Below are positions 7,280-54,891 of a stretch of 64,000 nt of DNA, piece by piece. This DNA is from an uncultured archaeon. Its GTDB lineage: Archaea; Asgardarchaeota; Lokiarchaeia; Sigyniarchaeales; SOKP01. The translations under genes were made by a program, and so were the position numbers. Where the stretch lies: positions 64,001 to 128,000 of the forward strand of contig CAZALK010000012.1 in assembly GCA_964486045.1 (NCBI GenBank), in the 5' to 3' direction. The notes below the pieces were generated by a model that was given only the letters and a program-made list of their open reading frames with translations, did no database searches and was not told where the DNA came from. Each line of letters opens with the position of its first letter. Within the stretch, counting starts at the first letter, position 1.

Positions 7280-7722
7280 AAAAACGCGTTCTGATTGCAG
7301 GTTGCTTTGATCTTCTTCATCCAGGGCATGTTTTTTTAATCAGTGAGGCTGCAAAATTAGGGGAAGTTTATGTTATTGTGGCTACTGACAAGAATAGGAA
7401 ATTATATTCTGGAACTTCTCCTATTATACCCCAAGAACAAAGATTGGAGATGATAAAAAGTCTAAAAAATGTAAAGGATGGTAGACTAGGAAGAAGTGAT
7501 AATGATACTCTTAAAACTGTGGAAGAAATATCTCCTGACATTATTCTTTTAGGACCTGACCAAGAATATAGTGTTGAGTTATTACAAAAAGGACTTCAAA
7601 AGAAAGAATTAGATCATATCGAAGTAAGAAGACTTGAAACCTATTATAAAAAATATAAGTTGCATAGCTCAAGTTTAATAAAAAGCAAAATTATTGAAAA
7701 GGGTAAAAATAAATTCAGGTAA
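7276..7722 (+). CDS. ribL: Archaeal FAD synthase (cytidylyltransferase family)
   Basis: GCFDLLHPGH, PDIILLGPDQ and SSSLIK motifs; lies next to ribK. Confidence 0.85.
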   Translation: MKKRVLIAGCFDLLHPGHVFLISEAAKLGEVYVIVATDKNRKLYSGTSPIIPQEQRLEMIKSLKNVKDGRLGRSDNDTLKTVEEISPDIILLGPDQEYSVELLQKGLQKKELDHIEVRRLETYYKKYKLHSSSLIKSKIIEKGKNKFR

Positions 7723-7731
7723 TTTGAAATC

Positions 7732-8442
7732 ATGAAATTTAATACAGAAGTTTCTCAGGAAAATTATGCTAATTGGTTTGCACTTTATCATCTTTGTCAG
7801 AATATAGGAAGCCAGAAAGCTATACATATCAGCAGCACAGAGTTTGGCAAGATTCTAGATTTATCCCAACAAACTGCATCTAGAAGAATAAATAGTTTAG
7901 AAGAAGTCGGCTGGATTCAGAGGAAAATAATCGGAAAAGAGCAAGTAATAAGAATTAAAAAAAAAGGAGCTGACGTAATCCTTGCAATGTATAAAAATTT
8001 AAAGCAAATCTTAGAAGAAATTCTAATCGTTGGGGAAGTTACTGAAGGAATGGGAGAAGGTGGATATTATGTTAGAATCCCAGGTTATTTGGCACAATTC
8101 CAGAAAAATCTTGGGTTTAAACCATATTATGGCACATTAAATATTCAGTTAACTGATCTCAATAAAGAATTATTAGAAGAAAACCAAAAAAATCGAATAC
8201 CCGTTAGAATTGAAGGATTTGAGGATGAGGAAGCAGGACGTACTTATGGAGCTGTAGATTGCTTTAATTGTCTGGTCTCTCGATTAGATAATCAAGATAT
8301 TAAGGTCAATTCTGCAATATTAAAAATTAAAAGAACTCATCATAAAAAGAATATTGTTGAGATCTTAGCAAAAGAATACTTAAGAGATGAGTTACAATTA
8401 AAAGATGGGGATCGATTGAGGATAGAATTTTCTAAGATTTAA
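7732..8442 (+). CDS. ribK: CTP-dependent riboflavin kinase with N-terminal wHTH
   Basis: SQQTASRR HTH; GMGEGGYY, PYYGTLN, RTHH and LRD.L.LKDGD motifs. Confidence 0.92.
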   Translation: MKFNTEVSQENYANWFALYHLCQNIGSQKAIHISSTEFGKILDLSQQTASRRINSLEEVGWIQRKIIGKEQVIRIKKKGADVILAMYKNLKQILEEILIVGEVTEGMGEGGYYVRIPGYLAQFQKNLGFKPYYGTLNIQLTDLNKELLEENQKNRIPVRIEGFEDEEAGRTYGAVDCFNCLVSRLDNQDIKVNSAILKIKRTHHKKNIVEILAKEYLRDELQLKDGDRLRIEFSKI

Positions 8443-16201: not shown

Positions 16202-16985
16202 CTTTAAGCTAAAAGTTGCGTATCCTTTTATTTGTCGAATTTTTACAGATTTTAACTCATCTTTTTGTTAGTGCAATATTCTATTTCTAATGGTATTTTT
16301 CCATAACCTTTTTATATTATTGAAAAATTCCACATCGCTACCTAGGAATTAATATATTCTCAAAATTGTATAAATCAAACGTATTATTTTTTAATATGTT
16401 CTCCCCAGTATTATACAAATGTTCCTCATTCCCACTAAATTACGAGAGGCTCTTTTTATAAATACTTACTTAATTTCAATTAGATCAAATTTAAATTTCT
16501 CCGAGATGAGGCATAATTTCAAAGGGATTTATTGATAAAGAACTCACTGAAATAGGGATAGAGAAGTATACCCCGAAATCAAGACTCCTCAACGATGACG
16601 CTCAGGCCAAAAATATAAATATAAAATTAGAAACAGTCTCTAATAAAATTAAACAGTTAGATTCGAATGATTTCCCTATCGAAAGTGATAATTTTCCATT
16701 CATATCTTTTAAACTAAATCCTAATGAAGCAGAAGAAGAATATCTTTCAATATCAAATGATATCCATTCAATTTTATCAAATTTTCCTGATCTTACTAAT
16801 AATCAGAAGTTAGATTATTGTAATAACCAAAGATATTTCATGAAGTTGTATCTGAAGGAAATCCTAATAAAAATCAATAAAAACTAATGGTGTAGAAGGA
16901 ATTTCTTTTGAAGTTTCTTTTAAAACGCAATTCAATTGAGATTTTTAAAAATAAGAGAAGAAAAAATAAATAAATTAATTATTAT

Positions 16986-40384: not shown

Positions 40385-40488
40385 TGGGAGAGGGGGGATT
40401 TGAACCCCCGACCATTACCTGATCGCTTAAACCTTAAGAAATCTCTCGGCCCCCAGCCGAGTATCATACCAAGCTAGACTACCCTCCC
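40385..40488 (-). tRNA. tRNA-Pro(GGG) with a 30-nt non-canonical intron (about 40415-40444)
   Basis: Acceptor stem GGGAGGG/CTCTCCC, anticodon arm CTCGG-CTGGGGG-CCGAG and T arm GGGGG-TTCAAAT-CCCCC; 35 nt lie where a 5-nt variable loop is expected. Confidence 0.93.
40415..40444 (-). other. 30-nt tRNA intron at about position 43/44, relaxed BHB
   Basis: Intron hairpin GATTTCTTAA/TTAAGCGATC, bulges AG|A and AA|T, imperfect central helix GCCG/AGGT. Confidence 0.78.
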
Positions 40489-48175: not shown

Positions 48176-48702
48176 CTATTTTATTACAGTTGGTTTTCTT
48201 ATTATTGGTAATGTTTATCCATGTCTTTTACTATAAAATTAAAAATAATAGTTAATTTAACTTAAATCAAGAATTAATTACAAAATTTCCTTTATTTTAC
48301 CCAATCCCCTATATTATTAAAATTAAGTTTAAAATTACTAACTATTCAAAATTGCAAAAACTCATAGTGTTACGTCTCAGATTTTGATCGAATTTTTTAA
48401 TTGTTCAAAGAGTTTCTCAATTTAATTCATTCTGAGGAAATTCTGAGACTTTTGATGATTTAAATCTTGGAATCCAACTAAAATTGCCTATCCATAAAAA
48501 GAACCTAACTTGCACGAGATTGATCAATTTCATAATTTCGAATTTTGTCGTTCAATTTTTTTTATTTTTATCCCAACAAAAGCATGAGAATATCAAAATC
48601 TTTAAATATCCAAAAGATCAATATCTATATAATAAATTCTTTAAAAATAACAAAAATTAACAAAAAGTATCACTACAAAATAAATAATTGGAGGAATAAA
48701 AA

Positions 48703-48978
48703 ATGGCTGGATCAGATTACATTTCTTGGTCACCAATAAGACGTCTCATGAAGCACAACGGGGCTGTAAGTCAATAAACCTCTTTTTGACTGGCTAAAAT
48801 CGTTGCGCGAGATGCCGTTAATGAGTTAGTTGATTGGATGGGTCAATCAGCAGAAACACTCACAAAAACCGCGTTAACTTTAACTAAACACTCTAAAATT
48901 CTTATAGGATTCCTATAAAAATAGGAAAGAAAGAAAGTAACGCGTAATGACATCTTATTGGCCATCAAGTATTTTTAA
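48703..48978 (+). CDS. Archaeal histone, 71 aa, spliced: join(48703..48767,48798..48897,48928..48978)
   Basis: GGAGG Shine-Dalgarno at 48690-48694. Spliced product MAGSDYISWSPIRRLMKHNGAVIVARDAVNELVDWMGQSAETLTKTALTLTKHSKRKKVTRNDILLAIKYF has the HMf-like histone-fold pattern (PI.RLMK..GA..V..DA; H.KRK.V...DI.LA). Confidence 0.92.
48768..48797 (+). other. 30-nt BHB-type mRNA intron 1 of the histone gene
   Basis: Intron stem AGTCAA/TTGACT, central helix GGCT/GGCT, bulges GT|A and AA|A(A), exon helix CAACGG/TCGTTG; contains in-frame TAA and TGA. Confidence 0.85.
48898..48927 (+). other. 30-nt BHB-type mRNA intron 2 of the histone gene
   Basis: Intron stem TTATAG/CTATAA, central helix TCTA/TAGG, bulges AA|A and AA|A; contains in-frame TAA and TAG. 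Confidence 0.85.
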
Positions 48979-49098: not shown

Positions 49099-49251
49099 AT
49101 GCTTATAGTACTTAATCTCTGTATAGGGTGCGGGGTTTGCGCTTCTAATTGTCCGTCTGGAGCAATTATGCTAGAAAAGGTTCTAGATAATATCCCTGCT
49201 AGAAATCAAACAGAAATGAGAATAAAATATATGGAAGAGAGAGTTTATTAA
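49099..49251 (+). CDS. 50-aa ORF with a single 4Fe-4S motif (small protein or 3' gene remnant)
   Basis: MLIVLNLCIGCGVCASNCPSGAIMLEKV...: CxxCxxCxxxCP; below the ORF-track size cutoff. Confidence 0.65.
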   Translation: MLIVLNLCIGCGVCASNCPSGAIMLEKVLDNIPARNQTEMRIKYMEERVY

Positions 49252-54843: not shown

Positions 54844-54891
54844 CTATTTTTCAACCAAATATGGAATTTTGTTTTTTCCTCTCGGATTTAA

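What the first reader, a model, noticed from the sequence alone, without database searches (positions are those of the whole stretch)
48703..48978. Histone gene split by two 30-nt bulge-helix-bulge introns: candidate mRNA splicing by the archaeal tRNA splicing endonuclease
Seen: after a GGAGG Shine-Dalgarno, three same-frame blocks encode MAGSDYISWSPIRRLMKHNGAV, IVARDAVNELVDWMGQSAETLTKTALTLTKHSK and RKKVTRNDILLAIKYF*. They are separated by two 30-nt inserts that contain in-frame stops. Each insert is a hairpin closed by a 4-bp central helix (GGCU/GGCU; UCUA/UAGG) flanked by A-rich bulges. Cutting after the second bulge nucleotide, the rule for archaeal EndA, removes exactly 48768-48797 and 48898-48927 and gives an ungapped 71-aa histone fold. 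Established: BHB introns are typical of archaeal tRNA and rRNA, and the well-known mRNA case is crenarchaeal cbf5. Inference: this is a multi-intron protein-coding gene in an Asgard archaeon, spliced by EndA plus RtcB and invisible to standard gene callers. I am not aware of this being described for histones but cannot check the literature.
Basis: partly seen in the sequence, partly recalled or inferred. Interest (0 to 1): 0.97.

Follow-up and report, generated by a model that had tools for sequence, protein, structure and literature searches.

The report
Histone gene split by tRNA-type mini-introns
A histone gene of an uncultured Asgard (Lokiarchaeia-type) archaeon is cut into three pieces by two 30-base hairpins shaped like tRNA introns, and relatives show the gene is still in use, so its messenger RNA is very probably cut and rejoined by the tRNA-splicing enzymes, which published work reports for only one other archaeal protein gene.

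Summary
Window 48703-48978 holds three same-frame blocks separated by two 30-nt inserts that carry stop codons. Removing 48768-48797 and 48898-48927 gives a 71-aa histone (Pfam PF00808, E 1.7e-8).

About 58 orthologues in 54 genomes of the same genus are uninterrupted and collinear with the spliced product. Seven copies are interrupted, always by exactly 30 nt, at five different sites. At every site the bulge-helix-bulge rule (cut after the second bulge nucleotide) restores the frame and the conserved residues.

A MAG named Loki_b32 shares the first intron. Between the two copies synonymous sites are saturated, dN/dS is 0.055, and the intron differs at only 8 of 30 positions with its pairing kept. 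Three of the genome's six histone genes and its single RNA polymerase A' gene carry such inserts. The polymerase intron covaries across five species.

The genome encodes EndA alpha and beta subunits and RtcB. No RNA run was available. This scan reached the same reading earlier in other Asgard genomes. The papers I could search report coding-sequence BHB introns only for crenarchaeal cbf5.

The parts
48640..48649 (+). TATA-like box (TTTAAAAATA) of the histone gene. It lies about 55 nt upstream of the ATG and is inferred only.
   Evidence: The motif ..TTTAAAAATAAC.. is conserved upstream of both interrupted and intact orthologues in the alignment. It was not tested functionally.
48690..48694 (+). 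GGAGG Shine-Dalgarno-like site
   Evidence: Seen. It is conserved as (T/G)GGAGGAA in all aligned orthologues.
48703..48767 (+). Exon 1. It covers codons 1-21 plus the first two bases of codon 22 (helix alpha1 and the start of loop L1).
48768..48797 (+). Intron 1 (site B), 30 nt, near-canonical BHB. The central helix pairs 48762-65 with 48792-95. The 5' bulge is 48766-68. The intron hairpin pairs 48769-74 with 48786-91. The 3' bulge is 48796-99. The outer exon helix pairs 48756-61 with 48800-05.
   Evidence: The MFE fold gives this motif. The register test gives P about 0.0015. The orthologous intron in G041/Loki_b32 has 94% of cells paired, with one double and five one-sided compatible changes.
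48798..48897 (+). Exon 2. It covers the third base of codon 22 through codon 55 (loop L1 and helix alpha2).
48898..48927 (+). Intron 2 (site C), 30 nt, relaxed BHB. The central helix pairs 48892-95 with 48922-25. The bulges are AAA 48896-98 and AAA 48926-28. The intron hairpin pairs 48899-48908 with 48912-48921, with one C-A mismatch. A distal exon2/exon3 helix pairs 48870-81 with 48934-44.
   Evidence: No orthologous copy of this intron was found in 53 other genomes of the genus.
48928..48978 (+). Exon 3. It covers codons 56-71 plus the TAA stop (loop L2 and helix alpha3).

Best explanation
The locus is a functional archaeal histone gene (HMf family) of a Promethearchaeia (Lokiarchaeia-type Asgard) archaeon, and its coding sequence carries two 30-nt bulge-helix-bulge introns.

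The likely sequence of events is as follows. The gene is transcribed as one pre-mRNA. Each insert folds so that four exon nucleotides pair with four nucleotides near the intron's 3' end, flanked by two roughly 3-nt bulges and an intron hairpin. The heterotetrameric (alpha-beta)2 splicing endonuclease EndA cuts after the second nucleotide of each bulge. RtcB then joins the exons and probably circularises the 30-nt intron. The product is an mRNA for a 71-aa histone.

Shown here: the anatomy, the exact register, intron-less orthologues, conservation and covariation of the orthologous intron, purifying selection on the exons, and the presence of the enzymes' genes.

Inferred: the cleavage and ligation themselves, and which enzymes perform them.
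For: 1. The spliced product is a histone. Pfam PF00808 scores 35.1 bits against a cut-off of 21.4. An intron-less orthologue aligns without gaps to the solved histones HMfA and HMfB.

2. In 54 genomes of the genus, about 58 copies at 82-94% identity are uninterrupted and collinear with the spliced product. Seven copies are interrupted, always by exactly 30 nt, at five different sites.

3. Splicing all of them by the BHB rule gives ungapped ORFs. It restores the conserved residues V/L at site B and Arg (AGA/AGG) at site D.

4. All nine introns examined have 4/4 central-helix pairs in the predicted register. Per-site P ranges from 5e-5 to 0.067 against random genomic positions scored at the best of five offsets.

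5. Own C12 and G041 share intron B. Exon dS is about 2.1 (saturated), dN is 0.115 and dN/dS is 0.055. The intron differs at 8 of 30 positions, against 70% of synonymous sites. In the structure, 94% of cells are paired, against 9-53% in slid controls.

6. At site D the central helix covaries, C-G to U-A.

7. The single-copy RNA polymerase A' gene carries the same kind of insert between GHFGH and IELARP. It is present in five species. Six of 13 pairs changed on both sides, 89% of cells are paired, and 0 of 500 shuffles reach this.

8. The genome has no intact copy of this histone subfamily. Both copies (C12 and C6) are interrupted.

9. The genome encodes EndA alpha with the catalytic Y/H/K residues and the crenarchaeal-type loop lysine, a His-less EndA beta, and RtcB. 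Kaneta 2018 (PMC5829648) reports that Asgard archaea have the (alpha-beta)2 EndA with the L1 loop that confers broad specificity.

10. Contigs from two DNA runs carry both inserts with no differences, at depths of 244 and 73.
Against: - There is no RNA-level evidence of any kind, and no cleavage or ligation was shown.
- Intron 2 has a relaxed motif. Its BHB conformer is 0.6 kcal/mol above the MFE, its central-helix pairs have only 0.11-0.15 ensemble probability, and it has no adjacent outer helix. No orthologous copy exists to test for covariation.
- The 3' bulge of intron 1 is 4 nt in the MFE fold.
- The uniform 30-nt length, a multiple of three, is not required by EndA and is unexplained.
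- With only two sequences, the covariation statistics at site B are weak on their own (257 of 500 shuffles reach the observed value).
- The two DNA runs may be the source of this MAG, so they are not fully independent.
Confidence: 0.85

Rival explanations
1. Translational bypassing (ribosome hopping, as in phage T4 gene 60 or the 'byp' elements of Magnusiomyces mitochondria). In this reading the mRNA is not spliced. The ribosome takes off at a codon before the hairpin and lands on a matching codon 30 nt downstream.
For: - Every insert is a multiple of three (30 nt) and forms a hairpin.
- At site B a GCU codon lies exactly 30 nt before another in-frame GCU, in both the own gene and G041.
Against: - A GCU-to-GCU hop at site B would put Lys where all orthologues have Val, Ile or Leu. 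The BHB junction gives Val (own) and Leu (G041).
- At site C the only matching landing codon (AAA) is followed directly by TAG.
- At the RNA polymerase site there is no matching codon 30 nt downstream.
- Bypassing does not predict the 4-bp exon-intron helix in a fixed register at all nine sites, nor its covariation.
Confidence: 0.05
2. The inserts are small mobile or palindromic DNA insertions that have inactivated the gene. The locus would then be a pseudogene and nothing removes the inserts.
For: - The inserts carry stop codons.
- Their presence or absence varies between species.
- Four other histone-fold genes exist in the genome, three of them intact.
Against: - dN/dS is 0.055 between two copies that share intron B, with saturated synonymous sites.
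- There are no frameshifts or other lesions in any of the seven interrupted copies.
- The intron evolves far more slowly than synonymous sites and keeps its pairing.
- The same kind of insert sits in the single-copy, essential RNA polymerase A' gene of five species.
- The inserts share no sequence with one another, unlike copies of a mobile element (listing).
Confidence: 0.04
3. The inserts are removed from the RNA, but by machinery other than EndA/RtcB, such as an unknown structure-specific nuclease and ligase.
For: - The uniform 30-nt length and the strong preference for AA as the last two intron bases (8 of 9) are not known requirements of EndA.
- No enzymology was done.
Against: - The geometry matches the defining EndA substrate: a 4-bp helix between two 3-nt bulges, with cuts after bulge nucleotide 2.
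- The genome encodes the broad-specificity (alpha-beta)2 type, which is linked to cbf5 pre-mRNA splicing in Crenarchaeota.
- Interrupted tRNA genes in the same genome need that enzyme anyway.
Confidence: 0.05
4. The inserts are an assembly or binning artefact and do not exist in the organism's DNA.
For: The source is a MAG with 7.8% estimated contamination.
Against: - Contigs from two runs cover the whole gene with both inserts and no differences.
- Orthologous inserts occur in MAGs from other studies: G041/Loki_b32, G019, G049 and G007.
Confidence: 0.01

Closest known systems
BHB intron in the cbf5 (pseudouridine synthase) pre-mRNA of Crenarchaeota (Watanabe 2002; Yoshinari 2006; Yokobori 2009, PMC2738675)
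   Same: Both are non-spliceosomal introns inside a protein-coding sequence with a bulge-helix-bulge motif. Both are found in lineages with the heterotetrameric (alpha-beta)2 EndA. In both, presence and absence vary between related species.
   Different: - The gene is a histone, not cbf5.
- The lineage is Asgard (Promethearchaeia), not Crenarchaeota.
- There are two introns in a 216-nt coding sequence.
- The length is a uniform 30 nt.
- There are at least five insertion sites within one small gene family, plus further genes in the same genome (RNA polymerase A' and others).
- Splicing is not yet shown experimentally here.
BHB introns of archaeal tRNA and rRNA, including the many non-canonical tRNA introns of Asgard archaea (bioRxiv 10.64898/2026.10.13.758758; Marck and Grosjean 2003)
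   Same: The motif and the predicted enzymes are the same. The window itself holds a tRNA gene with a 31-nt insert at a non-canonical position. The pattern of repeated lineage-specific gains is the same.
   Different: The host is an mRNA, so the splice must be exact to the base for the reading frame to hold. That preprint reports a median tRNA intron length of 22-23 nt, against a fixed 30 nt here. The preprint does not treat protein genes.
Unconventional cytoplasmic splicing of HAC1/XBP1 mRNA by Ire1 plus tRNA ligase/RtcB (own knowledge, not checked here)
   Same: In both, a hairpin-defined intron is cut from an mRNA by an endonuclease and the exons are joined by the tRNA ligase, without a spliceosome.
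   Different: The nuclease is different (Ire1) and the motif is different (twin stem-loops). That system is regulatory and stress-induced. Here there is no sign of regulation, and the nuclease would be EndA.
Translational bypass elements (T4 gene 60; Magnusiomyces 'byps'; own knowledge)
   Same: Both are short hairpin-forming inserts with stop codons inside otherwise intact coding sequences that are invisible to gene callers.
   Different: Bypass elements need matching take-off and landing codons. That requirement is met only at site B, and there it would give a non-conserved residue.
HMf-family archaeal histones (PF00808; PDB 1HTA, 1A7W)
   Same: The spliced protein and its intact orthologues match the family over the whole histone fold.
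   Different: The gene is interrupted. By alignment to HMfB (own knowledge of its secondary structure), the introns fall in or next to loops L1 and L2.

Membership tests
Archaeal BHB intron (EndA substrate) | A central 4-bp helix formed by four exon nucleotides and four nucleotides near the intron's 3' end | tested here: met
   4/4 pairs at both window introns and at all seven other introns examined, in the exact register. At site B the helix changes from GGCU/GGCU to AGCU/AGCU in G041.
Archaeal BHB intron (EndA substrate) | Two 3-nt bulges on opposite strands flanking the central helix | tested here: met
   Intron 1 has a 5' bulge GUA and a 3' bulge AAA(A), which is 4 nt in the MFE fold. Intron 2 has AAA and AAA in the BHB conformer, which lies 0.6 kcal/mol above the MFE. 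So intron 1 is near-canonical and intron 2 is relaxed.
Archaeal BHB intron (EndA substrate) | Flanking helices h (exon-exon) and h' (within the intron) | tested here: met
   For intron 1, h' is 6 bp and h is 6 bp, and both are kept in G041. For intron 2, h' is 9 of 10 bp and there is no adjacent h, only a distal 11-bp helix. Intron 2 therefore fits the relaxed HBh' class.
Archaeal BHB intron (EndA substrate) | Cutting after the second nucleotide of each bulge gives a functional product | tested here: met
   The frame and the conserved residues are restored in all seven interrupted copies, and the products are collinear with about 58 intact orthologues.
Archaeal BHB intron (EndA substrate) | The structure is maintained by selection (covariation or compatible changes) | tested here: met
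   Site B shows one double and five one-sided compatible changes, and the intron diverges less than synonymous sites. Site D shows a C-G to U-A change in the central helix. In the RNA polymerase intron, 6 of 13 pairs changed on both sides. This was not testable for intron 2 because no orthologue was found.
Archaeal BHB intron (EndA substrate) | The cognate endonuclease and ligase are encoded in the genome | tested here: met
   EndA alpha is at G000:C7 and EndA beta (lacking the catalytic His) is at G000:C10. RtcB is at G000:C1:512216-513523.
Archaeal BHB intron (EndA substrate) | The intron is excised from RNA and the exons are ligated (junction reads, circular intron) | not testable with these tools
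   No RNA run was listed. Junction k-mers were not found in metagenome contigs.
Archaeal histone, HMf family (PF00808) | A match to the histone-fold profile above the curated cut-off over the whole fold, in a protein of about 65-75 aa | tested here: met
   The spliced 71-aa product scores 35.1 bits (cut-off 21.4), with residues 10-68 matching profile positions 6-65 of 65. The orthologue aligns without gaps to HMfA, HMfB and histone H4 chains.
Translational bypass element | Matching take-off and landing codons flank the skipped gap, and decoding resumes in frame | tested here: not met
   The feature is met formally at site B (GCU/GCU), but it would give Lys where orthologues have V/I/L. It is not met at site C (landing AAA is followed by TAG) or at the RNA polymerase site.
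Group I / group II self-splicing intron | A ribozyme core of hundreds of nucleotides | tested here: not met
   The inserts are 30 nt. Rfam finds nothing in the window except one tRNA.

The most novel reading that the evidence does not exclude
This genus of Lokiarchaeia-type Asgard archaea may host a population of uniform 30-nt BHB mini-introns that is still gaining and losing copies in protein-coding genes. Highly expressed information-processing genes appear to be favoured targets: three of six histone genes, with five introns between them, and RNA polymerase A'. If so, routine multi-intron pre-mRNA splicing by the tRNA-splicing machinery is part of normal gene expression in close prokaryotic relatives of eukaryotes. 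The cell would then need some way to keep ribosomes off unspliced messages. The fixed 30-nt length and the AA 3' end hint at a specific, still unknown insertion mechanism.
Probability: 0.6. Interest if true: 0.9.

Novelty: new variant of a known kind. Interest (0 to 1): 0.8.

Why it matters
In the papers I could search, protein-coding BHB introns are documented for a single gene (cbf5) in Crenarchaeota. Here a 216-nt histone gene carries two, its paralogues and orthologues carry more at other sites, and the only RNA polymerase A' gene carries one.

This has several consequences:

- It raises the question of how translation of unspliced messages is avoided in a cell without a nucleus.
- It gives a tractable system of recent intron gains and losses in which to study how such introns arrive.
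- It has a practical side. Standard gene callers miss or truncate these genes, so histone and other gene inventories of Asgard MAGs are biased.

Tried and rejected
- **RNA evidence.** No RNA holder was listed for the window stretch or the gene.
- **Junction searches.** Exact searches for the two spliced junctions in JGI metagenome contigs found nothing. This says nothing either way.
- **Strict genome-wide scan.** Requiring a perfect 4-bp helix plus at least 5-6 adjacent hairpin pairs gave about 700-2,100 hits at every length from 20 to 60, with no excess over reversed-sequence controls or at 30 nt. Coding-score filters with short flanks were also swamped by background.
- **Relaxed genome-wide scan.** Only the relaxed motif combined with at least 40 open, coding-like codons on both sides and a stop in the insert showed an excess. 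L=30 gave 31 hits, against 8, 19, 6 and 9 for L=27, 33, 36 and 39. This gives a rough lower bound of about 20 further introns, not a census.
- **tRNA introns.** I tried to show that tRNA introns in this genome share the rigid 30-nt architecture. Eleven of 25 detected tRNA matches are 99-115 nt long, but a simple register scan did not recover one uniform intron class in them. I make no such claim.
- **Other split genes in the window.** Four same-frame ORF pairs (gaps at 1772-1822, 7700-7740, 16888-16923 and 54844-54891) look like ordinary intergenic spacers.
- **Rejected readings.** Stop-codon readthrough or an altered genetic code is ruled out because all three stop codons occur in the inserts. 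A self-splicing ribozyme is ruled out because the inserts are only 30 nt.
- **Second RNA polymerase insert.** I could not fit the second, roughly 35-nt insert in G063 and G043 to a canonical BHB register by hand, and I left it open.

Full report
**1. The observation**

A GGAGG lies at 48690-94 and the ATG at 48703. Three blocks of 65, 100 and 51 nt lie in one frame, separated by two inserts of exactly 30 nt (48768-48797 and 48898-48927). Read through, the frame meets TAA and TGA in the first insert and TAA and TAG in the second. With both removed it is an open 71-codon frame.

The product matches Pfam PF00808 (archaeal histone / CBF-NFY). It scores 35.1 bits against a cut-off of 21.4, with residues 10-68 on profile positions 6-65 of 65. 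Standard ORF listing sees only fragments of 24, 23 and 26 aa.

**2. The RNA anatomy**

For insert 1, the unconstrained minimum-free-energy fold of 48745-48815 is itself an h-B-H-B-h' motif:
- an outer exon helix, 48756-61 with 48800-05;
- a central helix, GGCU 48762-65 with GGCU 48792-95;
- a 5' bulge GUA;
- an intron hairpin, 48769-74 with 48786-91;
- a 3' bulge AAAA.

The central-helix pairs have about 0.58 probability in the ensemble.

For insert 2, the BHB conformer has three parts:
- UCUA 48892-95 paired with UAGG 48922-25;
- two AAA bulges;
- a 10-bp hairpin with one mismatch.

This conformer costs -15.3 kcal/mol against an MFE of -15.9. Its 3' bulge opens into an internal loop closed only by a distal 11-bp exon2/exon3 helix. 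It is therefore a relaxed motif.

In both inserts, cutting after the second nucleotide of each bulge removes exactly the 30 nt that restore the frame. I scored 200,000 random genomic positions for the same register, giving each its best of five offsets. Only 0.15% reach the score of either insert.

**3. The organism and its enzymes**

The window is G000:C12:64001-128000 of a 5.18-Mb, 45-contig genome. Near-identical histone genes lie in MAGs titled Promethearchaeota or Promethearchaeia, including Loki_b31 and Loki_b32.

The genome encodes the following:
- One RtcB.
- Two 200-aa EndA homologues.
- The first EndA is closest to the catalytic alpha subunit of the Aeropyrum pernix heterotetramer (3P1Z_B, E 1.4e-33). 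It keeps the Tyr/His/Lys motifs and the lysine of the crenarchaeal-type loop.
- The second EndA has no His at the catalytic position in the alignment to M. jannaschii EndA, as expected of a structural beta subunit.

Kaneta et al. 2018 (PMC5829648) report that Asgard archaea have the (alpha-beta)2 type with the L1 loop that confers broad substrate specificity.

**4. Comparison within the genus: the key evidence**

In 54 genomes of the genus, 48 hold close relatives of the spliced protein. About 58 copies at 82-94% identity are uninterrupted ORFs of 204-213 nt, collinear with the spliced product.

Seven copies are interrupted:
- own C12, with two inserts;
- own C6:146563-146835, an 86%-identical paralogue, with two inserts;
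- G019:C201 and G049:C36, with two inserts each;
- G007:C128, G041:C27 and G020:C1, with one insert each.

In DNA alignments every insert is exactly 30 nt, and the inserts occupy five different sites in a 216-nt gene.

All have the same layout. Four exon nucleotides come first, then two bulge nucleotides and the cut. One nucleotide follows, then a 23-nt hairpin. After that come four nucleotides complementary to the exon four, then two nucleotides (AA in 8 of 9) and the second cut.

Applying the rule blindly gives intact, ungapped histone ORFs in all seven copies. At site D the plain alignment would give Lys, whereas the BHB rule gives AGA/AGG, which is the Arg found in nearly all orthologues.

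**5. Selection**

G041 (Loki_b32) carries an intron at the same site B as the window gene. Between these two copies:
- 30.5 of 43.3 synonymous sites differ (dS about 2.1, saturated);
- dN is 0.115, so dN/dS is about 0.055;
- the intron differs at only 8 of 30 positions and keeps its length.

In the 17-pair structure, 94% of cells are paired, against 9-53% when partners are slid. There is one pair changed on both sides (A-U to G-C) and five one-sided compatible changes. These include both wobble pairs of the central helix becoming A-U, and two synonymous exon changes inside the outer helix.

With two sequences the shuffle control has no power, so this result is consistent rather than decisive on its own. 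At site D (four sequences) the central helix covaries C-G to U-A and 84% of cells are paired.

None of the seven interrupted copies has a frameshift or other lesion. The genome has no intact copy of this histone subfamily.

**6. The wider picture in this genome**

Earlier notes of this scan gave two leads that I checked.

A third histone gene (G000:C7, which has a Lys-rich N-terminal tail) has a 30-nt insert between ..YIAK and APIRRLMK. Three of the six histone-fold genes therefore carry five inserts between them.

The only RNA polymerase A' gene (PF04997, one match in a 99%-complete genome, one TAA inside) is split between GHFGH and IELARP. The insert is 30 nt with a textbook BHB. This intron is present in five species of the genus and absent from about 45. 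Across those five, 6 of 13 pairs changed on both sides and 89% of cells are paired. None of 500 shuffles reaches the observed values for paired cells, cells changed on both sides or the covariation score; 3 reach the count of pairs changed on both sides. An essential single-copy gene cannot be a pseudogene, so these inserts must be removed or skipped.

I also ran a genome-wide scan with a relaxed motif. It required at least 40 open, coding-like codons on both sides and a stop in the insert. It gives 31 hits at 30 nt, against 6-19 at other multiples of three. Many hits lie inside recognisable enzyme motifs. This is a rough lower bound of about 20 more. Stricter or looser scans were swamped by background.

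**7. Rivals**

- *Assembly artefact.* Contigs from two DNA runs carry both inserts with no differences at depths of 244 and 73. A contig of a relative in a third run lacks the site-B insert. Orthologous inserts also occur in MAGs of other studies.
- *Pseudogene or inert mobile hairpin.* This is contradicted by sections 5 and 6, and the inserts share no sequence with one another.
- *Translational bypass.* Site B does have in-frame GCU codons 30 nt apart, but a hop would put Lys where all orthologues have V/I/L. Site C and the polymerase site lack usable landing codons.
- *Readthrough or recoding.* All three stop codons occur in the inserts.
- *Another nuclease.* This cannot be excluded without enzymology, but the geometry is the defining EndA substrate.

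**8. What is known**

Full-text searches found BHB introns inside coding sequences only for cbf5 of Crenarchaeota (PMC2738675 and references in PMC5829648). A 2026 preprint on Asgard tRNA introns treats tRNA genes only. I found nothing on Asgard protein genes or on histone genes.

Follow-ups in this scan reached the same reading for other genes in Jordarchaeia, Odinarchaeia and a Lokiarchaeon. Those are unchecked AI notes, used here as leads only. My searches cover open-access papers and bioRxiv only.

**9. Verdict**

The RNA event itself is not shown. I rate it a new variant of a known kind: the mechanism class is that of cbf5. The novelties are:
- two introns in one tiny gene;
- a histone host;
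- the Asgard lineage;
- the uniform 30-nt form;
- the many sites and genes involved.

Still unexplained are why the length is fixed at 30 nt, why the introns end in AA, and why histone genes are hit so often.

Noticed in passing
window 40385-40488 (-): A tRNA gene (Rfam RF00005, 49.2 bits) carries a 31-nt insert in the variable-loop region, not at the canonical 37/38 position. ARAGORN misses the gene entirely.
   Followed up: partly
G000:C6:146563-146835 (L010): A paralogue of the window histone (86% identity) carries two 30-nt inserts at sites different from those in the window gene, after ATGAAAC and after ..ATCACGAG. The same two introns occur in G019:C201 and G049:C36. At site A the substitutions are concentrated in the hairpin loop.
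   Followed up: yes
G000:C7:137200-137500 (L014): A third histone gene has a Lys-rich N-terminal tail (MAKKKAPAKKKSEGYIAK..), which is unusual for archaeal histones. It is also split by a 30-nt insert just before APIRRLMK. The intron hairpin is weaker here (5 of 8 pairs).
   Followed up: partly
G000:C13:44101-44130 (L057/L160): The single RNA polymerase A' gene is split by a 30-nt canonical BHB insert between GHFGH and IELARP. The intron is shared with G017, G045, G063 and G043 and shows strong covariation.
   Followed up: yes
L172 (G063:C62) and L173 (G043:C27): In these two species the RNA polymerase A' gene has a second insert of about 35 nt, only 4 nt downstream of the first. I could not fit it to a canonical BHB register by hand.
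   Followed up: partly
G041:C27:37038-38144 (Loki_b32, NJBH01000021): Two histone genes of this subfamily lie about 700 nt apart on the same strand. One is intact and the other carries the site-B intron. This arrangement could allow intron loss by gene conversion.
   Followed up: no
all nine introns listed: The length is exactly 30 nt in every case, and the last two intron bases are AA in 8 of 9. Neither feature is a known requirement of EndA, and both are unexplained.
   Followed up: partly
window 49099-49251 (+): A 50-aa ORF with a 4Fe-4S ferredoxin-type motif (CIGCGVCASNCP) stands alone just downstream of the histone gene. It may be a small ferredoxin-like protein or a gene remnant.
   Followed up: no
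G000 genome-wide (one search list), e.g. C3:186175, C7:186752(-), C22:58742(-), C22:24777(-), C17:6250, C1:759271, C5:195271: These are further 30-nt BHB-register inserts with stop codons inside long, coding-like frames. Several lie in recognisable enzyme motifs. I did not check them individually against orthologues.
   Followed up: partly
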